Below are positions 12,932 through 60,847 of a DNA stretch of 64,000 bases, in pieces (position 1 is the first letter of the stretch; every line of letters starts with the position of its first letter). The notes beneath the pieces were generated by a model. That model worked only from the letters and a program-made list of their open reading frames with translations, did no database searches and was not told the DNA's origin. A program made the translations under genes and the position numbers. The stretch covers positions 896,001 to 960,000 of the forward strand of contig OY761614.1 in the NCBI GenBank assembly GCA_963664825.1. Reading direction: 5' to 3'. Origin of the DNA: an uncultured Holophaga sp. GTDB taxonomy: Bacteria; Acidobacteriota; Holophagae; Holophagales; Holophagaceae.

Positions 12932-14380
12932 TTACACCACGGCGATCCCGCTTTCCTTCAGTGTGGCCTCCAGCTTGCGGCGGGAGATGCGGGGATCGGC
13001 CACCACGCAGGGGCCATTGACGCAGCCCCCTTCGCAGGACATGCATTCCAGGAAGTTCCCGACGCCCTTCCCGGCCCCATAGACCTTGAGTTGGCGCAGC
13101 ATATCCTTCCCCAGACCGGAGAGCTTGTCGGGCCTGAGCACGACCCTGTCACCGATGCGGCGGGCCACGGCATCCCGCACGCCCCCCTCCATGGCATAGC
13201 CCCGCCCCTGGGCCGTGGCCCCCAGCTCTGGCGCGGTCCCTTGGCATTGACCGACATCGACGCCCTTGGCCACCAGGGCCGCGCCCAGTTCCTCGAAGGT
13301 CAGCACGCGATCCACCAATGGGTCGGCGAGAGCCTCCCTCCGCTTGGCCACGCAGGGGCTGATGAAGACCCGCAGGGCCTCCGGGAACCGCGCCGCGGCC
13401 ATCTCCGCGGTGAAATGCAGGGGGGTCGGCGTGTGGGAGATGCGCGGCGCCAAGGCGGGCAGGTTCTTGCGAACCAGGTCCGTGTAGGCCGGACAGCAGG
13501 AGGTCGTCATGAAGGGATCCCCCGCCTCCAGGCGCTCGATCAGTTCCTCGGCTTCGGCTTCCGTGGTGCGATCGGCTCCGGCAGCCACCTCGGCCACCTG
13601 ACTGAAACCCAGCGCCTTCAAGGCGCTCGCGAGTTGCTCCGGGGAGGCCTCGAACTGACCCAGGAGGGCCGGGGCGAAGAGGGCCACGGCGGGCCTCTCT
13701 TCTCCCAGGGCCCGCAGGATCTCCAGGAACTCCGACTGCTCCACGATAGCGCCGAAGGGGCAGGCCTGCATACACTTGCCGCAGTGGACGCAACCCTCGT
13801 GGTCCAGCGTCTGTTTGCCGGAATCCCCACGGGTGATAGCCCCCACAGGGCAGGCCTCCTCGCAGGGCACAGGCACCCGCACGATGGCGTGGAAGGGGCA
13901 CATGTCCACGCAGCGCCCGCAGTTCACGCAGAGATCGGGGTCGATCTTGGATTGCCCCCCCTCGAAGGTGATCGCCTTCTTCGGGCAGTTCAGCACGCAG
14001 GACCGGGCCATGCAGCCCTGACAAGCGTTGGTGACGAAGTAGCGGCTCTTGACGCAGGCGCTGCAGGCGTCGTCGATGACGGTGAGCACCCGGGGATCCC
14101 GTGCCTCGCGGGCAAGGGCCTCTCCTGCATACTCGGACAGGGGTTTCAGCTCGTCGGTCTCATCTCCAATATTGAAGCCCATGAGGGCCATGATCCGGTA
14201 GCGCAGAATGGCGCGCTCTGTGTGGATGCAGCACCGCAGGCGCTGGCCGCGGTAGTTCCGGGGGCGGATTTCCACCGGGAGGCGGTCGATGCGTTCCAGC
14301 AGCGTGCCCTCGAAGAGGTGCCGGGCCAGCTTGACCATGAGCTCCCGGCGGATGCGGGTGGTGTTGTTATCGGGCTGCAT
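12932..14380 (-). CDS. Monomeric [FeFe]-hydrogenase, group B type (HfsD-like)
   Basis: H-cluster motifs TSCCP, SPCVAK and ECMSCEGGCVNG; N-terminal ferredoxin motifs (CQGCMARSC..CP, CVNCGRC..CP, CVHCGKC..CP). Confidence 0.9.
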   Translation of the reverse strand: MQPDNNTTRIRRELMVKLARHLFEGTLLERIDRLPVEIRPRNYRGQRLRCCIHTERAILRYRIMALMGFNIGDETDELKPLSEYAGEALAREARDPRVLTVIDDACSACVKSRYFVTNACQGCMARSCVLNCPKKAITFEGGQSKIDPDLCVNCGRCVDMCPFHAIVRVPVPCEEACPVGAITRGDSGKQTLDHEGCVHCGKCMQACPFGAIVEQSEFLEILRALGEERPAVALFAPALLGQFEASPEQLASALKALGFSQVAEVAAGADRTTEAEAEELIERLEAGDPFMTTSCCPAYTDLVRKNLPALAPRISHTPTPLHFTAEMAAARFPEALRVFISPCVAKRREALADPLVDRVLTFEELGAALVAKGVDVGQCQGTAPELGATAQGRGYAMEGGVRDAVARRIGDRVVLRPDKLSGLGKDMLRQLKVYGAGKGVGNFLECMSCEGGCVNGPCVVADPRISRRKLEATLKESGIAVV

Positions 14381-14383
14381 CGT

Positions 14384-14647
14384 TCACCCTTCCCGGGAGG
14401 CCGCCAGGACCTCCAGGCGCTCTAGGATTCGCGGCAGGGTGGCATCCGCCAAGATTTCATCGCCGATTTTCACGTAGGGGGCCTCATTGGGGTTGCGACC
14501 ATCGCAGAGTTCCAGGCAGCGCGCCCCCCTCACCCGGACCCGGCCCCGCAGATGCTCGGGCAGCTGTTCTTCCAGCATCAGAAGATGGGAACCGCCCATC
14601 ACCACGCAGGTGGTGCCCGCGCAAACGGTCACGACGATCGTGTCCAT
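14384..14647 (-). CDS. Thioredoxin-like [2Fe-2S] protein (NuoE-like)
   Basis: CAGTTC...CLELC (Cx4C-Cx3C), APYVKIG; 87 aa. Confidence 0.85.
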   Translation of the reverse strand: MDTIVVTVCAGTTCVVMGGSHLLMLEEQLPEHLRGRVRVRGARCLELCDGRNPNEAPYVKIGDEILADATLPRILERLEVLAASREG

Positions 14648-14658
14648 TCCGGTCTCCT

Positions 14659-15831
14659 CTAGTAGTACGTGACATGGACCTTCTTGAGATACTTGGCCTC
14701 CAGCAGCCCCGCCAGACGCTTGATGACGTTGCGGCGGATATCCAACTCGATGGGGAGCGTGGGATCCTGATGGGCCTGGTTCACCCGGGTACCCACCTGG
14801 AAGGAGATGACATCGCTCTCCAGGAGGAGTTCCATGAGGCGGGTGGCGGCGTTGCGGCGGTGGGGCGGAGGCCCGAACTCGAGATAGTCCCCGAGCTTGC
14901 CCAGGGTCAGGCAGCCCTCGGTCACCAGTTCCACCCCTTCCATGTGGGAGGGCATGGGGACCTCCCGGTCGTATTCGCTCAGATCCATCTCGATCTCCCG
15001 CCGCAATTCCCGGGCGACGATATTGGAGGTGGTGCCGCCACAGACGACCTTCTTCACGCCGGGCTCCTCCACCAGGCGGGCGTATTCGGGGTCCCGGGAT
15101 TCCTCGTAGGGGGGCCCCGTGATCACATACATCTGGCGGGGATGCCGGAAGCAGAGGATCCCGCAGGTGATGTCATCCCCCGGCAGGCCGCCGTCGTAGC
15201 CCACCGCGCGGTCCACCACCACTTCGGCCAATCGCCGGGCGGAGAGGGCCGGATACTGCCGCAGCCTCTCGAGGATGAAGGCCTGGGCCTCAGGTTCCCC
15301 CCAGCCCAGGGGCAGTTCCTCGGTGCCCATGCCGGCCTGGGTGACGCCATCGGAATAGAGCAGGATGCGATCCCCGATGTTTGTTTCGAACTCCGAGACC
15401 TGGAGGATGCGATTGCCCCAGCGGGGACGCCCCAGCAACCGGCGTTCCACGGGCACGGCCTCCCCATCCCGGAGCAGGAGGAAGGGCGGATTGCCGTGTT
15501 CGAAGACCCGGGTGCGCCCATCCATGTGGGCATCCACGATGGTGAAGGTGGAGTGGCTGATGTGGCGCCGGGGTTCCACCGGCAGGGAATCCATAAGGAT
15601 GGTGGCGGCCTTGGCCGTATCGATATTCCAGGCCACGTACTCGAGGGCCATGGCCGCCGTCAGGGAAGCCGGAGCCGCGGCCTGCACCCCATGGCCCAAT
15701 CCGTCGGCGAGCACTGACACCATGCGGCGCCCCTCGTCCAGTTTCTGGGAGAGGAAGACATCCCCCGCCAGGTTCTGGCCCTTGCAGGCCAGCTGGCAGT
15801 AGTCCACCTCGATGAAGAGGCTCTCAGGCAT
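14659..15831 (-). CDS. SpoIIE/PP2C-type Ser/Thr phosphatase (HfsC-like)
   Basis: GDVF, LADGLGHG, YSDGVT, GDDIT; C-terminal CGGTTSNI domain typical of hydrogenase-linked phosphatases. Confidence 0.9.
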   Translation of the reverse strand: MPESLFIEVDYCQLACKGQNLAGDVFLSQKLDEGRRMVSVLADGLGHGVQAAAPASLTAAMALEYVAWNIDTAKAATILMDSLPVEPRRHISHSTFTIVDAHMDGRTRVFEHGNPPFLLLRDGEAVPVERRLLGRPRWGNRILQVSEFETNIGDRILLYSDGVTQAGMGTEELPLGWGEPEAQAFILERLRQYPALSARRLAEVVVDRAVGYDGGLPGDDITCGILCFRHPRQMYVITGPPYEESRDPEYARLVEEPGVKKVVCGGTTSNIVARELRREIEMDLSEYDREVPMPSHMEGVELVTEGCLTLGKLGDYLEFGPPPHRRNAATRLMELLLESDVISFQVGTRVNQAHQDPTLPIELDIRRNVIKRLAGLLEAKYLKKVHVTYY

Positions 15832-17542
15832 TGGGCCCCCCGGGGCGTTCCCGGACCGCGAACTCCTCGATGATCGAATTGAGGATGCCCTCGGACTTGG
15901 CGGCATTGCGCCCCAGGCTGAAGGCGATGTCCTGCACGTTGGCCAGCATGTTCTGGATCACCTGCTGAGCCTTCTCGATGACCTGCTGCTGGCGCTGGTC
16001 GGTCTCCGTCACATCCAGCAGGAGGGCCCCGATCACGCGATGGGCCTCCACGGTGAAGATCGTCACGCTCAGGGTGCGCTCCCCGCAGGGAATGCTCTCC
16101 CGGATGATCTCCTCGCCGCTATCGAGCACCCTCTGGAAGTAATCGGTGAAGGACAGGAATTTCTCCAGATGGGCTCCCGCCAAGTCCGGCTGCGTCTCAT
16201 GGACCAGCCAGGCGTCCTCGCCCATGAGCCGGACGAATTCCTCGTTGCATTCGATGACTTCCAGCTCCTGCCCCAGGATGACCACCCCGAAGGGCAGGGT
16301 CCGCAGCAGGGCATTGGCCTTCTTTTGCGCCAGGTTCCGCATATTCGAAACGCACATGCGGCCCTCCGCCCGACCATCGAGAATGGCCCGGGCCAGCTCC
16401 CGGCAGCTGTCGTATCCGCAGGCGCCGCAGTTGAGTTCATCCTCCGCACTGCGCTTGCCGATGCGCTCCAGGATCTGGGTGATTTCCTCCTCAGCGAAGG
16501 CCGTCTCCACCAGGGGATTGGGCAGGTAATGGCTGGCCACGGGGGCCTCGGGGCGCCTGGGACAGGCCTTCGGGTCCTCCTGGACGTAGTCGAGCACCTT
16601 CATACGGGAGGCCACCGCCTCCCGGCGGGAGACCTTGGGACCGCAGACGCAGCCCCCCTCGCAGGCCAGCAGTTCCAGGAAAATATTCCGCTCCCGGGGC
16701 TGGGGCAGATCCTCAAGGGCGTCCTGGATCTGCCCCAGGCCGCTCAGGGTCATGAAGCGGGTGTTCGAACCGCGCATATTGAGCCGCGTGGCCTCCGCCA
16801 TGCCCCCTTCCACCGGATAGAGGGCGCCTTCGGCGGCGGGTTGGAGGAGGAAGCGATCCTCCGCTCCGGGTGTGAGGCGGGCGGGGTTGATGCCTGCCCG
16901 GTCAAACCAGGCCCGCAGATCCTCGAAGGTGAGCACGGCCCCCAACAGACCCGGATGGGCTTCGGCCTCCAGTTTCTTGGCGATGCAGGGGCCCACGAAG
17001 ACCACCGCGATATCGGGTCCCAGGTGGACCCGCAACAGCTCGGCATGAGCCAAGAGCGGGGAATGCACAGGCGAAAGATGCGGCACCAGCTCTGGGTGGT
17101 ACTTCTGCACCAGATCGACCGCCACGGGGCAGGCCGTGGAGAACATCATGCGGCCCGTGCCCCCATCCAGCTCCTGGGCGATCCAGGCCGAGACCTGCTG
17201 GGCCCCAAGCGCCGTCTCGCTCACCCCGTGGAAGCCCAGTCTGCGGATGGCCGCGATGAGCTGGCCGGGCTCGATCCCTTCGAATTCGCTGACGAAGGAG
17301 GGCGCCAGCGAGACCACCACCCGGGCACGGCTCTCCAATAGCTGGACCGCCAGCGCCGTATCGTTCCGAACCACCTTGGCCCCGGAGGGACAGGCCGCCA
17401 CACAGGCGCCGCAGGCGATGCAGCGCTCTGGCATGACGGTGGCGTGACCCACTGTGACGCGGATCGCCTTGACGGGACATCCCCGCACGCACTTGTAGCA
17501 GTCGTGGCATTGAGCCTGTTCGGAATAGACGGCGCCGTGCAT
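15824..17542 (-). CDS. Sensory group C [FeFe]-hydrogenase with FeS and PAS domains (HydS/HfsB-like)
   Basis: Two 4Fe-4S motifs; variant H-cluster motifs STACP, GPCIAKK and ELLACEGGC; LNCGACGYDSC FeS domain; PAS (PFGVVIL..ECNEEF); C-terminal coiled coil. Confidence 0.9.
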   Translation of the reverse strand: MHGAVYSEQAQCHDCYKCVRGCPVKAIRVTVGHATVMPERCIACGACVAACPSGAKVVRNDTALAVQLLESRARVVVSLAPSFVSEFEGIEPGQLIAAIRRLGFHGVSETALGAQQVSAWIAQELDGGTGRMMFSTACPVAVDLVQKYHPELVPHLSPVHSPLLAHAELLRVHLGPDIAVVFVGPCIAKKLEAEAHPGLLGAVLTFEDLRAWFDRAGINPARLTPGAEDRFLLQPAAEGALYPVEGGMAEATRLNMRGSNTRFMTLSGLGQIQDALEDLPQPRERNIFLELLACEGGCVCGPKVSRREAVASRMKVLDYVQEDPKACPRRPEAPVASHYLPNPLVETAFAEEEITQILERIGKRSAEDELNCGACGYDSCRELARAILDGRAEGRMCVSNMRNLAQKKANALLRTLPFGVVILGQELEVIECNEEFVRLMGEDAWLVHETQPDLAGAHLEKFLSFTDYFQRVLDSGEEIIRESIPCGERTLSVTIFTVEAHRVIGALLLDVTETDQRQQQVIEKAQQVIQNMLANVQDIAFSLGRNAAKSEGILNSIIEEFAVRERPGGPNA

Positions 17543-17572
17543 CAAATCATCCTTCCCTGAGTCCCAGTCTTG

Positions 17573-20191
17573 CTAGGCTTCCTTCCCCGCCTGAACCTCC
17601 GCGAAGGGACGGCCGTAGTAGGTGTCCAGCAGGATCTGGCGCAGCTCGCTGATCAGTGGGAAGCGGGGGTTCGTGCCCGTGCATTGGTCGTCGAAGGCCT
17701 CTTCGGCCAGACGGTCCACCTTGGCCAGAAATTCCTCCTCGGGGACGCCAGCCTCCCGGATGGAGGCAGGGATGCCCAGCTCCCGCTTGAGATCGTCCAC
17801 CCAGGCGATGAGGGCCTCCACCTTGTCGCCGGTGCGCGCGCCTCCCAGGCCCAGGTGATCGGCCACCTCGGCGTAGCGCCGTCTGGCCTGGGGCCGGTCG
17901 TACTGACTGAAGGCCGTCTGCTTGGTGGGATTATCGTTGGCGTTGTAGCGGATCACATTGGAGATCAGTAGCGCATTGGCCAGGCCATGGGCGATATGGA
18001 ATTCGGCCCCCAGCTTGTGGGCCATGGAATGGCAGACCCCCAGGAAGGCGTTGGCGAAGGCGATGCCTGCGATGGTGGCCGCGTTATGCACCGCTTCCCG
18101 GGCCTTCGGGTCCTGGGCCCCGTTATGGTAGGCCGAGGGGAGATGCTCCTGCAGGAGCCGCAGAGCCTGGAGGGCCTGGGGATCCGAAAACTCGTTGGCC
18201 ATCACGGAGACGTAGGCCTCCAGGGCGTGGGTCACGGCGTCGACGCCGCCAAAGGCCGTGAGGCTCTTGGGCATATTCATGACCAGGTTCGGATCCACGA
18301 TGGCGAGAGTCGGCGTGAGTTCGTAATCGGCGATGGGGTACTTCATGCCTGTCACTTCGTCGGTGACGACGGCGAAGGGAGTCACTTCTGAACCCGTGCC
18401 CGAGGTGGTGGGAATGGCCACCAGCGTGCACTTGACGCCCATCTTCGGGAACTTGTAGATGCGCTTGCGAATATCCATGAAGCGCAGGGCCAGATCCTCG
18501 AAGTGGATCTCGGGATGCTCGTAGAGCACGCCCATGATCTTGGCGGCGTCCATGGGCGATCCGCCACCGAGGGCCACCAGCACATCGGGTTTGAAGGCGC
18601 TGAGCATGGCCACGCCCTTGCGCACGATGGCTAGCGTCGGATCGGCCTCCACCTCGTGGAAGACCTCCACCTCCAGGCCCATCTTCTTCAGGATGCGGAT
18701 GACCTCGTCGGCGTACCCGTGGGTGAAGAGGTAGCGGTCCGTCACGATGGCCGCCCGCTTCTTGTCGGCCAGTTCCTCCAGGGCGAAGGGCAGGCAGCCG
18801 CGCCGGAAGTAGATGCTCTTGGGAAGCCTGTGCCACAGCATATTTTCAGCCCTCTTCGCCACGGTCTTCTTGTTGATCAGGTGCTTGGGTCCCACATTTT
18901 CTGAAATCGAATTGCCTCCCCAGGAGCCGCAGCCCAGCGTCAGCGAGGGGGCGAGCTTGAAGTTGTAGAGATCCCCGATGCCCCCTTGAGAAGAGGGCGT
19001 ATTGATGAGGATGCGGCCCGTCTTCATGCGCTCGCCGAAATACATGATGCGCCCCGGCTGCCCGTCCTGGTCGGTGTAGAGCACGGCCGTGTGGCCGATG
19101 CCCCCCAGGGCCACCAGGGCTTCGGCCTTTTCGGTGGCCTCCTGGAAATCCTTGGCGCGATACATGGCGAGGGTGGGAGAGAGCTTCTCGTGGGCGAAGG
19201 GCTCTTCCAGCCCCACCGATTCCACTTCCCCGATCAGCACCTTGGTGTAGACCGGCACGTCCAGACCGGCCATGGAGGCGATCTTCACCGCGGACTGGCC
19301 CACGATCTCGGCGTTGAGCCCTCCATTGATCAGGATGACACCGCGCACGGCCTCGCATTCCGTGGCGTTCAGGATGTAGCCCCCATGGGAGGCGAAGCGC
19401 TCCTTCACGGCCTCATAGACGCTCTCGACGATGATGACGGACTGCTCCGAGGCACATATCACGCCGTTGTCGAAGGTCTTGGACATGAGGATGGAAGCCA
19501 CGGCCCGCTTAATATCGGCGGTCTCGTCGATGACCACGGGCGTGTTGCCGGCGCCGACGCCGATGGCGGGACGGCCCGAGGAATAGGCCGCCTTCACCAT
19601 GCCGGGACCACCGGTGGCCAGGATCAGATTGATATCCGGGTGGTGCATGAGGACGTTCGAGAGCTCCACGCTGGGTTCGTCGATCCAGCCGATGATGCCC
19701 CGGGGAGCGCCCGCGGCCACGGCGGCCTCCAGCACGATCCGAGCCGCCTCGCAGGTGGAGCGCTTGGCCCTCGGATGGGGATTGAAGATGATGCCGTTGC
19801 GGGTCTTCAGGCTGATAAGCGCCTTGAAGATGGCCGTGGAGGTGGGATTGGTGGTGGGCACGATGCCGCAGATGATGCCGATGGGCTCGCCGATGGTGAT
19901 GGTGCCGAAGGCGTCATCCTCGGAAAGGACACCGCAGGTCTTCTCGTCCTTGTATTTGTTGTAGATGTACTCGGAGGCGAAGTGGTTCTTGATCACCTTG
20001 TCCTCGATGACGCCCATGCCGGTCTCGGCCACGGCCATCTTGGCCAGGGGGATGCGGGCATCAGCCGCCGCCAGGGCCGCCATGCGGAAGATCTCGTCGA
20101 CCTGCTCCTGGCTATAGGTGGCCAGCACGCGTTGGGCCTTCTTGACCCGGGCCACCAGGGCATCCAGTTCCTGAACGGTTGAGACAGACAT
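17573..20191 (-). CDS. adhE: Bifunctional acetaldehyde-CoA/alcohol dehydrogenase
   Basis: EDKVIKNHFASE, PTTNPTST, FDNGVICASEQ, LTLGCGSWGGNS, GGGSPMDAAK, CHSMAHKLG; GGAGGG RBS. Confidence 0.98.
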   Translation of the reverse strand: MSVSTVQELDALVARVKKAQRVLATYSQEQVDEIFRMAALAAADARIPLAKMAVAETGMGVIEDKVIKNHFASEYIYNKYKDEKTCGVLSEDDAFGTITIGEPIGIICGIVPTTNPTSTAIFKALISLKTRNGIIFNPHPRAKRSTCEAARIVLEAAVAAGAPRGIIGWIDEPSVELSNVLMHHPDINLILATGGPGMVKAAYSSGRPAIGVGAGNTPVVIDETADIKRAVASILMSKTFDNGVICASEQSVIIVESVYEAVKERFASHGGYILNATECEAVRGVILINGGLNAEIVGQSAVKIASMAGLDVPVYTKVLIGEVESVGLEEPFAHEKLSPTLAMYRAKDFQEATEKAEALVALGGIGHTAVLYTDQDGQPGRIMYFGERMKTGRILINTPSSQGGIGDLYNFKLAPSLTLGCGSWGGNSISENVGPKHLINKKTVAKRAENMLWHRLPKSIYFRRGCLPFALEELADKKRAAIVTDRYLFTHGYADEVIRILKKMGLEVEVFHEVEADPTLAIVRKGVAMLSAFKPDVLVALGGGSPMDAAKIMGVLYEHPEIHFEDLALRFMDIRKRIYKFPKMGVKCTLVAIPTTSGTGSEVTPFAVVTDEVTGMKYPIADYELTPTLAIVDPNLVMNMPKSLTAFGGVDAVTHALEAYVSVMANEFSDPQALQALRLLQEHLPSAYHNGAQDPKAREAVHNAATIAGIAFANAFLGVCHSMAHKLGAEFHIAHGLANALLISNVIRYNANDNPTKQTAFSQYDRPQARRRYAEVADHLGLGGARTGDKVEALIAWVDDLKRELGIPASIREAGVPEEEFLAKVDRLAEEAFDDQCTGTNPRFPLISELRQILLDTYYGRPFAEVQAGKEA

Positions 20192-20256
20192 GCCATCCCT
20201 CCTTGGGTTAGGTTTCAAAGCTATCGACCAGGGCCGCAGGGTGAACCGAGGCCGTC

Positions 20257-20505
20257 TCACAAATACTTTTCGAGGATTCCGTTGAGGTCCTCGAGTTTGA
20301 TCTCCTGGATGAGGGTCTCGCCGATGCGGAGATTGGGCCCGTTCAAACAATGCCCCTCGCAGCGGCTGCCCTTCAGGAGCACCTTGTCCTCGAGCTGGTG
20401 CTCCCGCAGGAACTGGCGAATCACCTGCAGATGCTCGTTATTGCCGCGGGAGAAGCAGGAGCTCCCCAGACAGACGGTCAGCGGAATCTTGGCCTCGTTC
20501 GTCAT
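20257..20505 (-). CDS. Thioredoxin-like [2Fe-2S] protein (HfsA-like)
   Basis: VCLGSSCFSRGN...RCEGHCLNGPN; 82 aa; first gene of the hydrogenase operon. Confidence 0.87.
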   Translation of the reverse strand: MTNEAKIPLTVCLGSSCFSRGNNEHLQVIRQFLREHQLEDKVLLKGSRCEGHCLNGPNLRIGETLIQEIKLEDLNGILEKYL

Positions 20506-20546
20506 ATCGCCTCGGCTCTTCGATGCCGCGTCGCGGGGCATCCGTT

Positions 20547-20614
20547 ATCGAGAATTTTATATCGAGATTTTTTTCTCGATAACCTAGATTTGCATCCACC
20601 CTTCGCCCTGTCAA
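20547..20614 (-). promoter_or_regulatory. Promoter of the hfs/adhE operon with two overlapping palindromic operator sites
   Basis: Minus strand TTGACA (20614-20609), 17 bp, TGn-AAATCT (-10 at 20591-20586). Sites TATCGAGA-N6-TCTCGATA (20560-20581) and ATCGAGAATTTTATATCGAG (20547-20566). Confidence 0.7.
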
Positions 20615-33403: not shown

Positions 33404-33499
33404 GGAACCTCGAGGGAAAAGGCCCGCCAAGCCCATGTGCGACACCCCCCGAGGAACCATGGACTCCCGGGAAGATCCTTGCCGTTCCTATTTCAGCTC

Positions 33500-33612
33500 A
33501 GCATCTTTCCCGGATGGCAGCCTCGCCACCCCGGGGGGAATTGGCACCACGCTTGGGAGCAAGCAGGTTGCCAAGGTTTCACAGGGCCCGTCCCTCCACC
33601 TTTCTGGATATC
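33500..33612 (-). ncRNA. SAM-I (S-box) riboswitch
   Basis: Minus strand ATCCAGAAAGGTGGAGGGACGGGCCCTGTGAAACC-TTGGCAACC...GGTGCCAATTCC...GGAAAGATG, upstream of methionine genes. Candidate promoter TTGACG-17-CATCCT at 33674-33646. Confidence 0.93.
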
Positions 33613-33682
33613 GCGCTATGGAACTGGCAAAGACCTGGACGAACCAGGATGGGGCCCCGCCCCTGCCCCGTCAAGCGAGCGC

Positions 33683-49428: not shown

Positions 49429-50583
49429 TCATTTCATCGAAGTGCCATAGTAGGCGGCGGTGTAGATCGCCTTCACGTCGGCGACCGTGGGTTTGCCGGG
49501 GTTGGTGAGGGTGCAGGGATCGGCCAGGGCATTGGCGCTCATGCGGTCCAGGACCTCCTTGAACTTCGCCTCGCTGAAATCCACTTCCGTGCAGTCCTTG
49601 AAGGCCGCAGGGATGTCGAGCTTCTTATTGAGCTGGCGGACCTCCTCGGCGATGTCTGCGACGCCCAGGGCTTTCTCGACCTGGTCGTATTTCTTGGTGA
49701 ACTTGCGGTTGAAATCAATGATGTAGGGCAGCAGGATGGCGTTCGCGAGCCCGTGGGTGACGCCGAACTCGCCGCCCAGCTTGTGGGCGAGGGAATGGAC
49801 CAGGCCCAGGGATGCGTTGGTGAAGGCCATGCCCGCAAGGGCTGAGGCGTTGTGCATGTTGTAGCGCGCCTCCATATCGTCGCCCTTCGCATAGGCCCGC
49901 TCGAGGTTGCCGAGCACCAGCCGGATGGCCTCGATGGCGTAGGGGTCGGTGAAGGAGGTCGCCGCGATGGAGGCGGCAGCCTCGATCGCGTGGCACATGA
50001 CGTCCATGCCGGTATTGGCTGTGACGCTCTTGGGCATGCGGGCCGGGAGAGCAGGGTCCAGGATGGCGACATCCGGCACCATGTCGGCGGCGACGATGGG
50101 GTATTTGATGTGCTTGGCATGGTCGGTGATCACGGAGAAGGCCGTGATCTCACTGGCTGTGCCGCTGGTGGAAGGCACGGCGGCAAAGCGGGCCTTGTTG
50201 CGCAAGGCAGGCATGGAACCGGGCTGAATGATGTCTTCGAAGGAGAGTTCGGGGTGCTCATAGAAGCACCACATGACCTTCGCCGCGTCGATCGCGGAGC
50301 CGCCGCCGATGGCGACGATCCAGTCGGGGCCGAACTTGAGCATCGCCTCGGCGCCCTTCCGGACCGTCTCCACCGAGGGGTTAGGCTCGACGCCGTCGAT
50401 GACGATGGTCTGCATGCCGGCCGACTGGAGGAGTTCCACCGCCTTGTCCAGGAAGCCGAACTTCTTCATCGAGGAGCCGCCGGTGACGACGGCGGCTTTC
50501 TTGCCCTTCAGTGTGCCGAGTTTTTGAAGCGCGCCTTCGCCGTAGACGATGTCGCGCGGGATTGAGAAGTTGAGGGTTGCCAC
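49429..50583 (-). CDS. Iron-containing alcohol dehydrogenase (AdhA/BdhA-like, possibly NADPH-linked)
   Basis: VTGGSSM, GGGSAIDAAK, PSTSGTASE, HSLAHKLG, HGLANA; GTG start with GGAGG RBS. Confidence 0.93.
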   Translation of the reverse strand: MATLNFSIPRDIVYGEGALQKLGTLKGKKAAVVTGGSSMKKFGFLDKAVELLQSAGMQTIVIDGVEPNPSVETVRKGAEAMLKFGPDWIVAIGGGSAIDAAKVMWCFYEHPELSFEDIIQPGSMPALRNKARFAAVPSTSGTASEITAFSVITDHAKHIKYPIVAADMVPDVAILDPALPARMPKSVTANTGMDVMCHAIEAAASIAATSFTDPYAIEAIRLVLGNLERAYAKGDDMEARYNMHNASALAGMAFTNASLGLVHSLAHKLGGEFGVTHGLANAILLPYIIDFNRKFTKKYDQVEKALGVADIAEEVRQLNKKLDIPAAFKDCTEVDFSEAKFKEVLDRMSANALADPCTLTNPGKPTVADVKAIYTAAYYGTSMK

Positions 50584-50615
50584 GATCTGCCTCCATGCCG
50601 GAATGGCAATTCATT

Positions 50616-50653
50616 ATCGATAAAATTTTATCGATTGCGACGCACACCGTCAA
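50616..50653 (-). promoter_or_regulatory. adh promoter with a perfect 20-bp palindrome over the -10 box
   Basis: TTGACG (50653-50648), 17 bp, TAAAAT (50630-50625); ATCGATAAAATTTTATCGAT at 50616-50635. Confidence 0.8.
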
Positions 50654-51852: not shown

Positions 51853-53075
51853 CGAATGCTGCCATCGGGCTGCTGGTAGTTCTCCAGGATGGCCACCCAG
51901 GTGCGGCCCACGGCCAGGCCGCTGCCGTTGAGGGTGTGGAGGAGCTGGGGCTTGGCCTTGGGCTCGGTTCCCTTGAAGCGGATATTGGCGCGCCGGGCCT
52001 GAAAATCGCCGAACCAGCTGCAGGAGCTGATCTCCCGGTAGGTGTTCTGGCTGGGCAGCCACACTTCCAGGTCATAGGTCTTGCGGCTGGAGAAGCCCAT
52101 ATCGCCCGTGCAGAGCAGCATGCGGCGGTAGGGAAGCTCGAGCGCCTCCAGGATGGCTTCGGCGCATTCCGTCAGATGTTCCAGCTCGGCCTCGGCTTCA
52201 GAAGGGTTGGCGAAGGCCACCAGCTCCACCTTGTGGAACTGGTGCTGGCGGATGATGCCCTTGGTGTCCTTGCCGTAGCTCCCGGCCTCGCTGCGGAAAC
52301 AGGGGGTGAAGGCGCAGTGGCGCAGGGGCAGCTGATCGCCGGGGAGCACCTCGTCCCGGTAGAGGTTCGTCACGGGCACTTCGGCGGTGGGGATGAGGTA
52401 GAGCGCGTCCTCCCCGCGGTGGGTCTTGAAGAGCTCCGCCTCGAACTTGGGCAGTTGGCCCGTGGCGTACATGCTCTCGGGCAGCACCAGGTAGGGCGGC
52501 AGCACTTCCCCCCAGCCCGCTGCGGTCTGGCGATCCAGCATGAAGGAGATGAGGGAGCGCTCCAGCTTGGCCCCCAGGCCCTTGAGCACGGCGAAGCGCG
52601 ATCCGCTGATCTTGGCGGCCCGGTCCAGATCCAGGATGCCGAGCTGCGTGCCCAGTTCGATGTGATCCTTGGGCTTCTCGATGGAAGCGGGATTCCCCCA
52701 GCGCTTGGTCTCCTGATTGGCCCGCTCGTCGCGGCCCACGGGCACGCTGGGGTCCGGCAGATTGGGGATGGTGGCCAGGAAATCCTTGAAGGCGGCCTCG
52801 GCCTCGCGCTCCGCGGCCTCCAGGCAGGACAGTTTCTGTCCCACCTCCCGCTGAGCCTGGATGAGAGGCTCCGCATCCTGCTTGGCGCGTTTGAGCTTGG
52901 CCACTTCGTCGGAAACGCGGTTGCGCTCGGCCTTCAGCACTTCCGCTTCCTGGATCACGCGGCGCCGCTCGGTCTCCAGCCTCAGATAAGTCTCCCGATC
53001 GAAGGCATAGCCCCGGCTGGAGAGACCCTGGAGGGCGGCTTCGAGGTCTTGACGGAGGAGAGCGGGATCGAACAT
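51804..53075 (-). CDS. serS: Serine--tRNA ligase
   Basis: YLIPTAEVP, FRSEAG, RQHQFHKVE, YREISSCS, HTLNGSGLAVGR. Start set at MFDPALL. Confidence 0.98.
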   Translation of the reverse strand: MFDPALLRQDLEAALQGLSSRGYAFDRETYLRLETERRRVIQEAEVLKAERNRVSDEVAKLKRAKQDAEPLIQAQREVGQKLSCLEAAEREAEAAFKDFLATIPNLPDPSVPVGRDERANQETKRWGNPASIEKPKDHIELGTQLGILDLDRAAKISGSRFAVLKGLGAKLERSLISFMLDRQTAAGWGEVLPPYLVLPESMYATGQLPKFEAELFKTHRGEDALYLIPTAEVPVTNLYRDEVLPGDQLPLRHCAFTPCFRSEAGSYGKDTKGIIRQHQFHKVELVAFANPSEAEAELEHLTECAEAILEALELPYRRMLLCTGDMGFSSRKTYDLEVWLPSQNTYREISSCSWFGDFQARRANIRFKGTEPKAKPQLLHTLNGSGLAVGRTWVAILENYQQPDGSIRVPKALQPYLGCDVIR

Positions 53076-53302
53076 GGGAGCCTCTGAAACAATCAGTTTA
53101 CGGCAGAGGACGGAGGATTCGCGCCAACGCAAATGGAAACTGCACAGCATCTTGGGGCAGCCCCCTTGATCAGACCGATTCGTCCGCCCAGGACGCGCCA
53201 AAGGCCTCTCGTGAGAACGCCAACATTTGGCATATCCACGCTCACATCCCAGGTCATTACACACCCAAAAGTATCTAGATTTCCCCTAGGTACGAGCATT
53301 GA

Positions 53303-53875
53303 TCAATTATTGCGCCCAATTAAAAGATCAAAGGCGAAATTCACCCTCCCATATAGCGCAAGAACAACCTCATAGGGTTTATCAAGAGGGTTTGTTATCG
53401 CAATTCTACGGGACCGCAAGCTCTTCGGGGCTAGGTTGGCCCTCCGAATTGCCGAGGCTACCTCATCTGCCGTTGGCGTCTTGACGAACTGCATCCACAC
53501 TTTGTCGGTGGATTCACATTGCAGTTCGAGTTTCAGACATTCTTTCGGAGCAAGTTTGAAAACATAATAATTTGAGCCATTCGGGAGTTCTGACTGTAGA
53601 TCGGACATCCGATCATTCCCCTGCGGCGATATATTCATGTTACCGAGCAGCCCCGTGTTTCTCGCTGCCAATCCGCTGTTCTGAGAGGCCTGAAGGGCCG
53701 AAGTCAAACGAAGACCTTTTTCGTGAATGAGGCGAATGGCCCCATCCACAAAAACCAGCTGACGCCCCCCAGAGGGAGAGCCAGAACGAGAAGGTCCCAG
53801 TTCGCCCTGTCCAAAAAACGGTATATAGACTAATCCCAGAACAAAACAAGAAATGGGCATTTTGAAACAATTCAT
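53303..53875 (-). CDS. Hypothetical exported protein, paralog of 60105-60665
   Basis: Hydrophobic N-terminus; C-terminal ~90 aa align by eye with 60105-60665. Confidence 0.7.
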   Translation of the reverse strand: MNCFKMPISCFVLGLVYIPFFGQGELGPSRSGSPSGGRQLVFVDGAIRLIHEKGLRLTSALQASQNSGLAARNTGLLGNMNISPQGNDRMSDLQSELPNGSNYYVFKLAPKECLKLELQCESTDKVWMQFVKTPTADEVASAIRRANLAPKSLRSRRIAITNPLDKPYEVVLALYGRVNFAFDLLIGRNN

Positions 53876-53905
53876 ACAATCCCCATAGTAAAATCCCCTT
53901 CTATC

Positions 53906-53940
53906 AAAAAGAGAAGGGCCCCCACACTGCGGGGCCCCTT
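53906..53940 (-). terminator. Intrinsic terminator after receptor-barrel operon 1
   Basis: Minus strand GGGCCCC-loop-GGGGCCC followed by TTCTCTTTTT. Confidence 0.8.
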
Positions 53941-53959
53941 CCCTTTACTAAGATTAAGA

Positions 53960-54529
53960 TCAGAAGTGGAACTTGGCACCTACCTGGAGCCAGGAAGGAT
54001 TATAGTTCTGGCTGGCGTTTCCGTTAACACCCATCTCCACGACCTGCAGCATGGCATGGGCGGAAAAACTCTTGTTAATGGCGTATTCGAGTCCAATACG
54101 GCCACCGATCTTCATACCCTTGACGGTCTCCGTGGTCGTGACTGTGGGGGCTGTTGTTTTCATCCGCCATTTGTTCACAGAGACGCCGGTCACGATGCTA
54201 AGGCCTTTATACCCTGTGTTGATGAACAGGTCTCCGGCCAATTGGTAATCATCGAGACGCACCTTGTTCCCATCCGAATTGGGATCACCGGCGGGAAAGA
54301 TATTCGCCCCTAGGCTCACCCGAAAGGGAACCGCGGAATCCATAACATGGCCATTATAGCCGAAATCCACACAGGCACCCGCCACGCTGCTGTGGTTGGT
54401 GATGTTCTGCAGGGTATTCAGCGACCAGGGAAGCGCGATTCCCACATCGAAGGTCTTGACATCCTGGGCGGACAGCCCTCCCGAAAGGAGTGTCGCCAAC
54501 CCGATCATCATCAGTTTACTTTTTTTCAT
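53960..54529 (-). CDS. Small outer-membrane beta-barrel protein
   Basis: Signal peptide (LSA|QD), alternating strands, C-terminal beta-signal LQVGAKFHF. Confidence 0.85.
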   Translation of the reverse strand: MKKSKLMMIGLATLLSGGLSAQDVKTFDVGIALPWSLNTLQNITNHSSVAGACVDFGYNGHVMDSAVPFRVSLGANIFPAGDPNSDGNKVRLDDYQLAGDLFINTGYKGLSIVTGVSVNKWRMKTTAPTVTTTETVKGMKIGGRIGLEYAINKSFSAHAMLQVVEMGVNGNASQNYNPSWLQVGAKFHF

Positions 54530-54547
54530 ATTATCTCCCGGATTGGC

Positions 54548-57500
54548 TTAGAACTTGAGGCCCAGGCTCGTGCCCACCGAACGCCCGTAATTCCAAAAAT
54601 TAGCGATCTTATTATCCGCAGTCATTTGGCTTGGGTTCAGCATCATGTTAAGGTTCCCGGAACCATTGGCTGCCGTCGTAATGTTATAGGTCCCCTGCAG
54701 CTGGGTATTGAAGAGGTTGTTTACAGATACATCCCCTATCAGCTGGAGACGCTTGAAGCCCAAGGGAATCATCCAGTTGAGTTTGAAGTCCACCTGGTAG
54801 GTGTCGTTATAGGTGTAGGCACCGCGATCGCTGTAGAACTGCGCATAGGTGGTGGGATAGGCGGGAATCCCGACACCCTGATACTTTCCACCCGCGTAGG
54901 GGGCCCCAGTGGCCGTAAGGTTAGCCAAACCCGTATTCTTGTAATCAGTCAGGGACCAATTGTTGCCACTGTCATAGCGCAGTAGCCAACTGAAGGAGAC
55001 CTGACCCTTGCCTACGGGCACGACAGCCGTGGCCGCAACCCGGGCCCTGTGGGTCTGATCCATAAGCAGAGGGCCCGTGGGGGCGAAATCGTTGGTCGAA
55101 AGCCCTAACCCGGTATAAGTCCCATTGGTTCCGGTGAGCCATGCGCTGTTGCCGTAATACCCGGGTACACCGTTATCACGGAAGGAAGAGGTGCTATCCC
55201 CACCATTGTTATTGCCGATCAGTCGGCTATATGTGTAGTTGCCGGAGATCGTCCAAATCGAGTTCACACGCTTCAGCCATTCCATCTCCAGCGCATGGTA
55301 GCGCCGGGTCAGATCGTCCGAATTGAAGACGTAGGTCTTCTGGACCCAGGCTGGATTGAGATGCGTCACGGGATTGGCAATCTGGATCCAGTTCGCAGGA
55401 TCGTAGTCCTGCTTGAAGGCCCAGTTGGCCTTGTAATCGCGGTTCACATAGGTAAGACGCACGAAGGAACCATCGTTGAAATTGCGGCGATAGGTCAGGG
55501 TGAGCTCATCCACATGGGGGGCCTTGAGCTTGCCCTGCATCACATAGGATTTCGACGCATCACCATAGGAAAAGGCGTTATTGACACCTGCCACCGCCTG
55601 CCCATAGTTGGCGGGGTCTGTCAGCTGGGCATAGGTAAGCCAGCGGAGACCAAGGGCGGGGTCCGTAGCCGTGCCGGGAGCCGGCTGACCGGCAATGCCG
55701 CTAAAGCCGTACTGGACGTAGGAGCTATCAGCCTTCTTGATGAAGGCATCCGTGAAGCCCGTGTAGAAATCGCCACCATAGCGGGCCGCCGTCGCCGTCA
55801 GAATATGTTTGTTATCGCCGAAGGCATCAAAGACAACTTGAAGACGAGGTGAGAAATCTGAGCTGGTAGTGAGGGTCGCACCATCCGTATCCTGGATCGA
55901 CATGTGATCCCAGCGGAGGCCCATCATTACATTCCAGTTCTTATTTATGGTCCATTGATCGTTGGCATAGCCACTGGTGGTGGTGTTCTTGGTGATGCCG
56001 TCATGGCCCGCATACTGGATCATCATAGGGGCAAGGCCCGAGTTTCCAGATCCGCTCTGCCCGTTGATGCCCTTACCCATCCAGATGATGGAAGGAAAGA
56101 GATAATCGTCCGTGGTGGGATTGTAGACAGCGCCGCCGGCCCTGAAGGTTGCATTCCCAGGTCCCTGTTCGCGGGAAGTGCCGCGATCCGACTGGTAGTA
56201 TTCCATGCCGAGATCAATCTCATGGCTACCCGCCAATTCTCGGTACATCTTCAGATTGGCACTGGCATTGGTGTGGTTGCGGGTATCAGGCGTGGTGGAG
56301 ATGCCGAAACCAAAGGGATATCCTACATTCGTCCAATTGTGATTGGCCGTGTTATAGGGAGTCTGATCTGTATCCATCCAGATGCTGACCTGCTTGTTCC
56401 GAGTCGGGTCCCCAGTCGGGAAGGTCGTGGTGGATTCGAAACGGGCGTACTTCGCATCAAGGAAGGTGGTGCTGCTGAGGATGCCCCTGTAGTTGGCAGA
56501 CCAAGAAGTCTTCTTCGACTCCTGGGTGCCCAGCATGGCAAGGCGGCGAACGGTGTAGTTGAATCCGCTCGTTGAGTCCCCATAGGGATCCCGATTATTG
56601 GTCGTCACCTTGTCGGAGGACATGGAAAATTCGAGCGTATGATCCTGCGTGATAGCGCCTGTGAGCTTACCTTCGTAGTAGGACTCGTCCTGAGTCTTGT
56701 TGTAGAACTTATTTTCATCAAACAGCGTGAGCGCATACCCGCTGGGTGGCGTCTGGAGCTGGCTGTCGATTCCAGCGATACCCGAGCGCTCGATCCACTT
56801 GGCGCTGGGTCCGGCAGTCCCAAGGCTATACACATTCGAATTCTTGGGAGACAAGTTCGTGCCAAGGGAGAACCAGAGCCGGTCCTTGACGATTGGACCC
56901 GAGAGCGTGACCTGGAATTCCCGATTGAGGGTATCGTTAGTCTCGTTGACTGCGCCCTGGGTGCCACGTCCAGCCGCACCCCAGGAGGGGCGACTCAGAG
57001 TGGAGCGGATGGAACCCGCGAAGTCATTGCCGCCGCTCTTAGTCACCACGTTAACCTGGCCACCGAGAGCCCGACCATTGCGGGCATTCAGGGGGGAGGT
57101 AATAACCTGGATGTCCTCGATGTTGTCTTCAATGACCACACGGCCTACCTGGGCACCCTGGTAGTCATCCTTGACATCCACGCCGTTGACCCGATACAGC
57201 GTGTCCTGGGTGGACCCGCCACGCACCGTGAACTGGCCGTTGGCACCAGTGGCGACACCCGGGGCCATGTCGGCGGCACCCGTAAAGCTGCGATCGATAC
57301 CGGGAAGGACCGCCATCTGTTCGGCAGAGAAGTTCGTCGCCGTCTTGGTATCGCTCTTATCCTGGATTTCAGAATTGGCAACAACTTCCACGGTCGCCGT
57401 GGCCGTTGTCACGGCCTTCAAGATCAGATCCTGGCGTCCAGCACTACCGAGGCCCACGCGAACGTTATCAACGCCTGCGGAGATGAAACCGGTCCGGTTA

Positions 57501-57751
57501 GCCACAATCCTGTAGTTCCCGACGGGAAGCATCGCAACCCGCCACTCGCCTTTCGCCCCTGTCGTCAGGGTGCGGGGAGCGAAAAGCGCAGGAGAGCTGA
57601 GGATGACCTGAACACCCGCAAGAGGGGCGCCATTGGCATCCTTGACAGCGCCAGTCAGAGTGCCGGTCGAAACCTGAGCGAAAAGCGCGGAGCCCGCAGC
57701 GAGAGTCATCGCCACGCTGCCAAACCGCGTCATGCCCGTGCAAAATTTCAT
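54548..57751 (-). CDS. Oar-like TonB-dependent receptor with N-terminal carboxypeptidase-regulatory-like domain
   Basis: Signal peptide, GAVKDANGAPLAGV, plug (VRGG..YRVNGVD, VNVVTKSGGN), SGPIVKDRLWF, VNNLFN, terminal LGLKF. Confidence 0.92.
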   Translation of the reverse strand: MKFCTGMTRFGSVAMTLAAGSALFAQVSTGTLTGAVKDANGAPLAGVQVILSSPALFAPRTLTTGAKGEWRVAMLPVGNYRIVANRTGFISAGVDNVRVGLGSAGRQDLILKAVTTATATVEVVANSEIQDKSDTKTATNFSAEQMAVLPGIDRSFTGAADMAPGVATGANGQFTVRGGSTQDTLYRVNGVDVKDDYQGAQVGRVVIEDNIEDIQVITSPLNARNGRALGGQVNVVTKSGGNDFAGSIRSTLSRPSWGAAGRGTQGAVNETNDTLNREFQVTLSGPIVKDRLWFSLGTNLSPKNSNVYSLGTAGPSAKWIERSGIAGIDSQLQTPPSGYALTLFDENKFYNKTQDESYYEGKLTGAITQDHTLEFSMSSDKVTTNNRDPYGDSTSGFNYTVRRLAMLGTQESKKTSWSANYRGILSSTTFLDAKYARFESTTTFPTGDPTRNKQVSIWMDTDQTPYNTANHNWTNVGYPFGFGISTTPDTRNHTNASANLKMYRELAGSHEIDLGMEYYQSDRGTSREQGPGNATFRAGGAVYNPTTDDYLFPSIIWMGKGINGQSGSGNSGLAPMMIQYAGHDGITKNTTTSGYANDQWTINKNWNVMMGLRWDHMSIQDTDGATLTTSSDFSPRLQVVFDAFGDNKHILTATAARYGGDFYTGFTDAFIKKADSSYVQYGFSGIAGQPAPGTATDPALGLRWLTYAQLTDPANYGQAVAGVNNAFSYGDASKSYVMQGKLKAPHVDELTLTYRRNFNDGSFVRLTYVNRDYKANWAFKQDYDPANWIQIANPVTHLNPAWVQKTYVFNSDDLTRRYHALEMEWLKRVNSIWTISGNYTYSRLIGNNNGGDSTSSFRDNGVPGYYGNSAWLTGTNGTYTGLGLSTNDFAPTGPLLMDQTHRARVAATAVVPVGKGQVSFSWLLRYDSGNNWSLTDYKNTGLANLTATGAPYAGGKYQGVGIPAYPTTYAQFYSDRGAYTYNDTYQVDFKLNWMIPLGFKRLQLIGDVSVNNLFNTQLQGTYNITTAANGSGNLNMMLNPSQMTADNKIANFWNYGRSVGTSLGLKF

Positions 57752-57783
57752 ATTTTCCTCCAGTTACCAATAATTTCGGTGGC

Positions 57784-58566: not shown

Positions 58567-58959
58567 AGGGAGTCTCCCAAAGGAAAACCAAAAAGTTCAA
58601 CCGGAATGGCGGAACCTTGGTCGGTTGAAACGCATGTGCTCAGGCAGAAGAGGAGGTGGAGGTGCTCGACACAAAACAGGCAGCACGACTTGAGGTAGCT
58701 AGCATGATTTAGATTTATGATCGAAGTCCCAACCAGGGTCAAGACATTTTTGTGACCGTTTTTTGTCGACGTTACAGCCCCTAGGCAGGGATGGATACTC
58801 CCCCTTGCCCTTTCAGGCCAGATCCGACGCAGGATCCTATTCCAGATTATACCCAAAACCATCCTCAGGCCCCAGGGATGGCAGCATTAAGTATCCAAAA
58901 CAGAATCACATGCGGGGTCCTGCCCGACGAGCCCCTGTTGCTTTGCTAGATCATTTCAA

Positions 58960-60821: not shown

Positions 60822-60847
60822 AAAAAGGGGCCTCCGAAGAGGCCCCT
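60822..60847 (-). terminator. Intrinsic terminator after receptor-barrel operon 2
   Basis: Minus strand AGGGGCCTC-TTCG-GAGGCCCCT followed by TTTT. Confidence 0.85.

What the first reader, a model, noticed from the sequence alone, without database searches (positions are those of the whole stretch)
12932..20614. adhE embedded inside an hfs-type H2-sensing [FeFe]-hydrogenase operon
Seen: a co-oriented, tightly spaced run behind one promoter: 2Fe-2S protein, adhE, PAS-containing group C hydrogenase, PP2C phosphatase, second 2Fe-2S protein, group B hydrogenase. No terminator is obvious inside it. Known: hfsABCD of Thermoanaerobacterium saccharolyticum has essentially this order without adhE, and its HfsB has been linked genetically to adhE/adhA expression and ethanol yield. 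Inference: the H2 sensor, phosphatase, H2-evolving enzyme and ethanol electron sink are physically joined here into one electron-disposal unit, an arrangement I do not recognise as described. Maturases hydEFG are not in this window.
Basis: partly seen in the sequence, partly recalled or inferred. Interest (0 to 1): 0.82.

Follow-up and report, generated by a model that had tools for sequence, protein, structure and literature searches.

The report
Known hydrogenase-ethanol operon, unusual Rex operator
This is a real six-gene run that joins an ethanol-forming enzyme to a putative hydrogen sensor and a hydrogen-producing enzyme, a combination already described in Ruminococcus albus with the genes in another order; the less familiar part is a DNA palindrome at its predicted promoter that is likely the binding site of a little-studied type of NADH-sensing repressor.

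Summary
The six genes are there as described (hfsA-like 2Fe-2S, adhE, sensory-type HydS, PP2C, second 2Fe-2S, group B hydrogenase), and hydE/F/G lie elsewhere in this Holophagaceae genome. The novelty claim fails. R. albus 7 carries counterparts of all six genes plus rex and a phosphotransferase in one cluster that drops 111-fold in low-H2 co-culture, and C. thermocellum has rex, adhE and hfs at neighbouring locus tags. Only the order is peculiar: adhE sits between hfsA and hydS, seen in 0 of 9 relatives where the junction is visible. A same-genus relative appears to have deleted adhE and kept its leader.

The better lead is regulatory. A palindrome, TATCGA(G/T)A-N6-T(C/A)TCGATA, abuts the predicted promoter. 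The 8 best sites in the genome precede this operon, a second alcohol dehydrogenase, kal-bcd-etf, hydBA and the single rex gene. Scanning metagenomes with the DNA motif alone put 30 of 120 loci directly before rex, and 28 of 28 readable Rex proteins had a proline-containing wing unlike canonical Rex. It is likely the operator of a hydrogenase-linked Rex subfamily. Binding, co-transcription and the sensor's target are untested.

The parts
20586..20614 (-). Predicted sigma-70-type promoter: TTGACA, 17 bp, AAATCT with extended TG
   Evidence: TTGACA and the spacing are kept in same-genus G120; not passed by the consensus scanner
20546..20581 (.). Two overlapping 22-bp palindromes (half-sites at 14-bp period), predicted operator of the genome's Rex
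   Evidence: (34.1 and 31.5 bits)
20257..20505 (-). HfsA-like thioredoxin-fold [2Fe-2S] protein, 82 aa
   Evidence: PF01257 E 1.7e-7; Cys 12, 17, 49, 53; 36% and 31% to the two R. albus 2Fe-2S proteins
20192..20256 (-). adhE leader with ribosome-binding site; its last ~30 bases recur directly before hydS in G120, which lacks adhE
17573..20191 (-). AdhE, bifunctional acetaldehyde-CoA/alcohol dehydrogenase, 872 aa; the only full-length copy found in the genome
   Evidence: NF010378 1459 bits; 62% to R. albus AdhE; catalytic and iron-binding motifs present
15824..17542 (-). HydS/HfsB, group C-type putative sensory [FeFe]-hydrogenase: 2x[4Fe-4S], H-domain, FeS, PAS-like domain, C-terminal helix
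   Evidence: (STACP, GPCIAKKLE, ELLACEGGC); 30% over 576 aa to R. albus HydS
14659..15831 (-). HfsC, SpoIIE/PP2C-family phosphatase with a conserved C-terminal region of no Pfam family
   Evidence: PF07228 E 7.5e-17; acidic motifs kept
14384..14647 (-). Second small [2Fe-2S] protein, 87 aa
   Evidence: PF01257 E 8.5e-4, below cut-off; Cys 9, 14, 44, 48; conserved at this place in G120, G020, G124, G125, G126 and L010
12932..14380 (-). HfsD/HydA2-like monomeric group B [FeFe]-hydrogenase, predicted ferredoxin-dependent and H2-evolving
   Evidence: TIGR04105 510 bits; TSCCP and ECMSCEGGC motifs; 35% to R. albus HydA2
50615..50636 (.). Best-scoring copy of the same palindrome in the genome, overlapping the predicted -10 of an iron-containing alcohol dehydrogenase gene (minus strand, ending at 49429)
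   Evidence: 37.1 bits

Best explanation
This is a reshuffled copy of the R. albus-type fermentation operon, likely transcribed as one unit and likely held off by the genome's single Rex repressor bound at the palindrome beside the promoter. When H2 builds up, the NADH-dependent hydrogenases would stall and NADH would rise, so Rex would let go. AdhE would then burn NADH by reducing acetyl-CoA to ethanol, while the group B hydrogenase would vent ferredoxin electrons from pyruvate oxidation as H2. HydS, the PP2C and the two 2Fe-2S proteins likely add an H2-dependent tuning step whose target is unknown. Shown here: genes, spacing, motifs, maturases, position and distribution of the palindrome. 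Inferred: one transcript, Rex binding, NADH release, the physiology, and the insertion of adhE between hfsA and hydS in an ancestor of this genome and G120.
For: Counterparts of all six genes are in the R. albus cluster, whose eight genes fall to 0.008-0.011 of pure-culture level in co-culture while ethanol falls from 8.7 to 0.3 mM. The genome has hydEFG (9-11), six [FeFe]-hydrogenase domains, PFOR and ackA; pfl and rnfC were not found (genome 96.6% complete). One Rex gene. A matrix from 13 sites in other genomes gives 8 sites at or above 20 bits in this genome against 0.9 (max 2) in 10 block shuffles; all 8 fall before five redox-related units: this operon, an Fe-ADH, kal-bcd-etfBA, hydB-hydA and rex-hydCBA-hydS. 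At 4 of those 5 a TTGAC-17-nAnnnT promoter overlaps or abuts the site. Motif-only metagenome scan: 35 of 120 loci have rex, adhE, hfsA, Fe-ADH or hydC starting within 450 bp; Pfam adds 2 Fe-ADH and 2 with a DHODB Fe-S domain (NfnA-like by recall). An unrelated Bacteriovoracaceae genome has the motif before rex, hydS, hydC, kal, an Fe-ADH and pdhA. T. saccharolyticum hfsABCD has a predicted canonical-type Rex site (PMC5886521).
Against: No binding or transcript data. The predicted -10 (AAATCT) is a poor consensus match. The matrix is partly circular: the search pattern came from this site and 2 of 13 training sites are its orthologues. 17 rex copies of family f1 (wings of the same proline type where read) have no site within 350 bp upstream. 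About 80 of 120 metagenome loci show no redox gene (40 of the 120 held 622 bp or less). The same operator precedes the NADH-dependent hydrogenases, which R. albus expresses at similar levels in both conditions, so Rex alone does not explain a high-H2-specific switch. The R. albus site has half-sites 15 bp apart, not 14, and scores only 17 bits, a level that AT-rich DNA also reaches. The R. albus phosphotransferase has no convincing homologue here. In T. saccharolyticum hfsB loss raised rex expression along with adhE.
Confidence: 0.72

Rival explanations
1. H2 sensing by HydS, passed through the PP2C, is the main switch; the palindrome is a secondary input or the end-point of that pathway (for example phosphorylation of Rex or of a partner).
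For: The feedback model is proposed for R. albus (PMC6776011). hfsA or hfsB deletion raised adhE transcripts two- to threefold, and hfsC and hfsD were needed for the high ethanol yield (PMC5707799). HydS here keeps the sensory-type residues.
Against: HydS and HfsC show no DNA-binding domain in Pfam. No kinase is encoded in the operon, and the R. albus one has no convincing match in the genome. [quoted passage not shown]
Confidence: 0.3
2. The palindrome is bound by another regulator that happens to control rex, and Rex is a target rather than the binder.
For: The motif differs from the TTGTGAA-N4-TTCACAA type consensus (recalled; the clostridial form TTGTTAA-N4-TTAACAA is). 6 of 113 class genomes without a Rex hit have an exact match.
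Against: The inner 18 bp can be written TCGAGAA-N4-TTCTCGA, 5 of 7 positions per half as in the Rex box. The motif co-varies with the Rex wing: 28 of 28 readable motif-found Rex proteins have G[KRN]P[KR]xG, against 0 of 11 plasmid-record Rex controls other than R. albus. 16 of 31 family-f1 genomes with a Rex hit have an exact site (kin are not independent).
Confidence: 0.12
3. adhE is a passenger inserted recently into the hfs operon of this one genome, with no selected link to the hydrogenases.
For: The order hfsA-adhE-hydS is seen in 0 of 9 relatives with a visible junction; 0 of 8 same-genus genomes have adhE at E<=1e-100.
Against: adhE lies directly before hfsA in G016 and G020, behind rex in G083, G084 and G085, divergent from rex-hfs in L010, and in the same cluster in R. 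albus. This AdhE groups with family members at 100/99 support, so it is not a distant import. G120 keeps the adhE leader before hydS.
Confidence: 0.12

Closest known systems
Ruminococcus albus 7 pRUMAL01 cluster Rumal_3400-3407 (rex-adhE-phosphotransferase-2Fe2S-2Fe2S-hydS-SpoIIE-hydA2)
   Same: Counterparts of all six genes (AdhE 62%, HydS 30%, PP2C 28%, hydrogenase 35%, 2Fe-2S 21-36%); co-oriented and tightly spaced; its Rex has the same GRPKVG wing and two TATCGATA half-sites upstream.
   Different: Here adhE lies between hfsA and hydS, the second 2Fe-2S gene follows the phosphatase, there is no phosphotransferase, rex is 1.5 Mb away heading a hydCBA-hydS operon, and half-sites are 14 rather than 15 bp apart. 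Different phylum.
Thermoanaerobacterium saccharolyticum hfsABCD
   Same: hfsA, hfsB (PAS), hfsC (phosphatase), hfsD in the same relative order (PMC11837493); genetic link of hfsB to adhE; predicted Rex site upstream.
   Different: adhE is elsewhere there (Tsac_0416 against Tsac_1550), and the predicted Rex site is of the canonical clostridial type. Sequences were not compared here.
Clostridium thermocellum Clo1313_1799-1793 (rex, adhE, hfs)
   Same: Locus tags place Rex_1799, adhE 1798 and hfs 1796-1793 together.
   Different: Adjacency is read from locus tags only; the DNA was not seen. PMC8457756 gives a motif for the other Rex (2471); the passages read give none for Rex_1799.
Canonical Rex repressors (PDB 3IKT, 3WG9, 2VT2, 5ZZ5) and their TTGT(G/T)AA-N4-TT(A/C)ACAA box
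   Same: Full-length homology (E 5e-39 to 1e-31), NF003994 over cut-off, conserved QVRKDL helix and GxGxxG dinucleotide loop; predicted targets are redox-balancing enzymes.
   Different: The wing reads GRPKVG instead of G..G.GY, and the predicted operator is TATCGA(G/T)A-N6-T(C/A)TCGATA, often in overlapping arrays at 14-bp period.

Membership tests
R. albus-type adhE/HydS/hydrogenase cluster | adhE, HydS, Ser/Thr phosphatase and ferredoxin-only hydrogenase in one co-oriented cluster | tested here: met
R. albus-type adhE/HydS/hydrogenase cluster | rex and a phosphotransferase inside the cluster | tested here: not met
   rex is at C1:2416468; best match to the phosphotransferase is 43 aa at E 0.001
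R. albus-type adhE/HydS/hydrogenase cluster | Co-transcription and induction at high H2 | not testable with these tools
   needs RNA data
hfsABCD operon | Order 2Fe-2S protein, PAS hydrogenase, phosphatase, catalytic hydrogenase | tested here: met
   with adhE and a second 2Fe-2S gene interposed
Group C sensory [FeFe]-hydrogenase (HydS) | H-cluster cysteines kept, with Ala/Gly/non-Met at the positions mutated in TmHydS (A131, G177, S267) | tested here: met
   STACP, GPCIAKKLE, ELLACEGGC; alignment to prototypical enzymes; TmHydS residues from PMC10055695 passages, correspondence made by motif, not by aligning to TmHydS
Group C sensory [FeFe]-hydrogenase (HydS) | C-terminal PAS domain | tested here: inconclusive
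   PAS_8 E 7e-4 but below cut-off; PAS-like secondary structure in the model; no fold search run
Group C sensory [FeFe]-hydrogenase (HydS) | HydDB class assignment | not testable with these tools
   HydDB is not among the tools
Group B monomeric [FeFe]-hydrogenase | TIGR04105 over cut-off; proton-transfer cysteine in TSCCP | tested here: met
   510 bits against 450
Active [FeFe]-hydrogenase system | Maturases HydE, HydF, HydG in the genome | tested here: met
Rex regulon | Canonical TTGTGAA-N4-TTCACAA box at the promoter | tested here: not met
   no match with 3 or fewer mismatches at this promoter among 59 genome-wide matches
Rex regulon | Palindrome at the rex promoter and at promoters of NADH-consuming enzymes | tested here: met
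Rex regulon | Direct, NADH-released binding | not testable with these tools
   needs EMSA or ChIP

The most novel reading that the evidence does not exclude
A widespread Rex subfamily tied to [FeFe]-hydrogenase and adhE clusters, marked by a G-(K/R)-P-(K/R)-x-G wing, reads its own operator, TATCGA(G/T)A-N6-T(C/A)TCGATA, often as overlapping arrays of self-palindromic hexamers at 14-bp period. This operator is the missing DNA-level output of HydS-containing fermentation switches from Acidobacteriota to Firmicutes, including the H2-responsive R. albus operon.
Probability: 0.5. Interest if true: 0.65.

Novelty: new variant of a known kind. Interest (0 to 1): 0.42.

Why it matters
The gene cluster itself only extends a known ethanol/H2 switch to Holophagaceae. 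The operator matters more. How HydS-containing clusters reach transcription is an open question in the papers read, and the passages of the C. thermocellum DAP-seq paper read here give no motif for the Rex beside adhE. A defined site lets one ask directly whether the ethanol/H2 switch is NADH sensing by this Rex, H2 sensing by HydS, or both. It also allows regulon prediction in rumen, digester and sediment fermenters and gives a handle for tuning ethanol against hydrogen in production strains.

Tried and rejected
Assembly artefact: rejected. Missing maturases: rejected (9-11). Canonical Rex box at this promoter: not found. Riboswitch or known RNA in the leader: none; the only Rfam match in the window is a SAM riboswitch at 33498-33614 (115). 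No strong hairpin followed by a T run at the two adhE junctions. Sequencing runs: no RNA holder listed, which is no evidence on expression. Complex prediction of HydS residues 395-572 with the phosphatase: no answer, score 0.13 under the mark of 0.32, controls not folded; not used either way. Zheng et al. 2014 was not held, so it is cited only through other papers; Ravcheev et al. 2012 and RegPrecise were not seen. Searches for the motif or a second Rex type in print (Rex2/motif/hydrogenase, 52 TM1427/Rex, 53 TATCGA/Rex/binding/NADH, 56 redox-sensing/Rex/paralog/Thermotoga/hydrogenase/palindrom, 70 HydS/sensory/phosphatase/Rex/group C, 111 ATCGATA/Rex/hydrogenase/repressor) listed nothing that describes it; 53 and 111 showed only 20 of 204 and 25 of 67 mostly unrelated papers. 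The Rex tree is the quick version because the careful search did not finish, and its wing labels were wrong for 4 of 72 rows (L010, L130, L146, L235; all have the proline). The genome-contig scan with HydS returned only 2 loci, so synteny outside the class is thinly sampled.
Full report
Observation. Six ORFs lie on the minus strand from 20505 to 12932 with gaps of 65, 30, -8, 11 and 3 bp. Pfam and NCBIfam give a thioredoxin-like 2Fe-2S protein, AdhE (NF010378, 1459 bits), an [FeFe]-hydrogenase with extra FeS domains, a SpoIIE phosphatase, a second 2Fe-2S protein (below cut-off, four cysteines kept) and a TIGR04105 group B1 hydrogenase. The first hydrogenase has STACP, GPCIAKKLE and ELLACEGGC where catalytic enzymes have TSCCP, MPC and EIMAC; the second keeps TSCCP and ECMSCEGGC. 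This fits the sensory pattern described for TmHydS (PMC10055695, passages). PAS support is weak by profile and fair by predicted secondary structure (mean pLDDT 68.8, 10-row alignment). DNA contigs bridge adhE-hydS in 3 of 4 runs and hfsA-adhE in 2 of 4.

Genome context. The closest HydS relative, at 84%, is in a record titled Holophagaceae. The genome has hydG, hydF and hydE over cut-off, six H-domain matches, PFOR (99) and acetate kinase (102); pfl and rnfC were not found (100, 101). One rex gene heads a rex-hydC-hydB-hydA-hydS-phosphatase operon 1.5 Mb away.

The linkage is known. R. albus 7 pRUMAL01 carries rex, adhE, a phosphotransferase, two 2Fe-2S genes, hydS, SpoIIE and hydA2 in one run, with counterparts of all six window genes. 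PMC6776011 (section 14 read, Table S7 rows seen) reports this eight-gene cluster down 111-fold in co-culture with an H2 consumer and proposes HydS feedback. C. thermocellum locus tags put rex (1799), adhE (1798) and hfs (1796-1793) together (passages only). PMC5707799 (parts 1-3 of 5 read) links hfsA/hfsB loss to two- to threefold more adhE transcript and argues against adhA. PMC11837493, PMC13277313, PMC5886521, PMC8457756, PMC7063780 and PMC11365378 were seen as passages. Zheng et al. 2014 was not held. Eight earlier notes of this scan reach the same verdict for other genomes; they are unchecked and not independent support.

Gene order. Of 157 class genomes, 39 have a HydS match at E<=1e-60; 11 including this one have the orthologous copy (58% identity or more). 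In the 9 others where the hfsA-hydS junction is visible, none has adhE between them; G084's contig starts inside hydS. adhE lies directly before hfsA in G016 (split over two contigs) and G020, behind a rex paralogue in G083, G084 and G085, and apart in genus g14, where a rex paralogue heads the hfs genes in G124, G125, G126 and G129, as it does in G018 of genus g5. In 6 of 6 outgroup junctions read, the hfsA stop is followed within a few bases by hydS, the likely start overlapping the stop. Same-genus G120 has 68 extra bases there, its hfsA stop is lost and read through, and the last ~30 bases match this genome's adhE leader; it has no full adhE (116; 83% complete). The simplest history, inferred: a rex-adhE-hfs unit broke up in different ways, adhE moved between hfsA and hydS before this genome and G120 split, and G120 deleted it. 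An insertion in this genome alone is not excluded. The AdhE tree (16 rows; one under half filled) places this protein with family members at 100/99 and does not resolve its sister.

The operator. Between the predicted -10 and hfsA lie two overlapping palindromes, nearly unchanged in G120 while the DNA further upstream has diverged. A loose pattern found like sites before adhE, hfsA or rex in other genomes. A matrix from 13 such sites gave 8 hits at 20 bits or more in this genome (shuffles: mean 0.9, max 2 of 10), all at five units: this operon, an Fe-ADH in the window, kal-bcd-etfBA, hydB-hydA and rex. At 4 of 5 a TTGAC-17-nAnnnT promoter overlaps or abuts the site; this operon and rex share the same geometry (112). 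The training is partly circular, so three further tests were run. First, 15 rex copies outside the training set (this genome's included) scored 14-35 bits upstream against negative scores inside the gene, while 17 other family-f1 copies and 2 canonical ones had no site within 350 bp. Second, an exact 20-mer occurs in 22 of 157 genomes and its reversed control in none: 16 of 31 family-f1 genomes with a Rex hit, 6 of 113 without one, 0 of 13 in family f3 (kin are not independent). Third, a metagenome scan with the DNA pattern alone returned 120 loci (about 1200 estimated): 30 have rex starting within 450 bp, 5 have adhE, hfsA, Fe-ADH or hydC, and Pfam on 36 references from unassigned loci added 2 Fe-ADH and 2 with a DHODB Fe-S domain. 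Some loci are near-duplicates (25 distinct helix-wing strings), GC ranges from 0.28 to 0.65, and about 80 show no redox gene. With about one rex per 3 Mb, chance would give well under one such locus (my estimate, not a control scan).

The binder. All 28 metagenome loci with a Rex helix that my pattern could read have a G[KRN]P[KR]xG wing; two more that it skipped also have the proline. Among 12 named plasmid-record Rex genes examined (12 of 19 hits), only R. albus has that wing and two half-sites upstream, 15 bp apart; 8 have the canonical G..G.G(Y/I) wing and 3 Bacteroidales read G(R/K)TRVGY. One canonical control scored 16.8 bits in AT-rich DNA, close to the R. albus 17.1. In a quick tree of 72 rows the 10 canonical proteins form one branch (SH-aLRT 97). 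A Bacteriovoracaceae genome has the hexamer in arrays of up to five at 14-bp period and sites before rex, hydS, hydC, kal, an Fe-ADH, a MaoC-type protein and pdhA; kal is a shared target with this genome. Written as TCGAGAA-N4-TTCTCGA the core matches the recalled canonical box at 5 of 7 positions per half.

Mechanism. By established fermentation logic (R. albus): at low H2, NADH and reduced ferredoxin leave together through NADH-dependent hydrogenases and acetyl-CoA yields acetate and ATP; at high H2, NADH is spent on ethanol and ferredoxin vents through a monomeric hydrogenase. This operon encodes that second mode. The most likely direct switch is NADH-dependent release of Rex (inferred, about 0.7). 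HydS and the phosphatase probably modulate it, but their target is unknown, the R. albus phosphotransferase is absent (67), and Rex sites before the NADH-dependent hydrogenases mean Rex alone does not explain selectivity for high H2.

Novelty and verdict. The operon is a permuted member of a known kind in a new phylum. The operator was not found in six literature searches, but the key comparative paper on Rex regulons and RegPrecise could not be seen, so it may be on record there; one earlier scan note also mentions a non-canonical Rex-type operator (107). Interest 0.42 overall; the subfamily-operator reading has about even odds of being both true and undescribed.

Noticed in passing
window 49429-50636, minus strand: A second iron-containing alcohol dehydrogenase, probably starting at GTG, carries the best-scoring copy of the palindrome over its predicted -10.
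   Followed up: yes
window 14659-15150: The C-terminal ~160 residues of the phosphatase have no Pfam match at E<=5 yet hold invariant motifs (GGTT, TEG, N.A.Q.P) in 19 of 19 aligned homologues; a candidate input or docking domain.
   Followed up: partly
window 33498-33614, minus strand: SAM riboswitch, 69.9 bits.
   Followed up: no
window 52000-64000: GC falls to 0.55-0.60 against about 0.65 elsewhere, with a 1067-aa ORF at 54548-57751 that looks by eye like an outer-membrane receptor; possibly acquired DNA.
   Followed up: no
G000:C1:3137746-3141509: Two HydE-like radical SAM genes lie in tandem behind hydF, while hydG is 1.56 Mb away.
   Followed up: no
G000:C1:2416468-2424969 (L024): A second HydS-phosphatase pair follows rex-hydC-hydB-hydA; its HydS is 47-48% identical to the window's, so the genome has two putative H2 sensors.
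   Followed up: partly
G157:C1:1648609-1648670 and 1464867-1464914: The hexamer repeats four to five times at an exact 14-bp period, suggesting cooperative binding of several dimers.
   Followed up: partly
genus g7 (62 genomes): No Rex hit in any of 62, although 7 have HydS-like matches; their sensory hydrogenases would have to work without this regulator.
   Followed up: no
L009 / G120:C86: mscL, which lies between the ompA-like gene and the operon in the window, was not detected at that place in G120.
   Followed up: no
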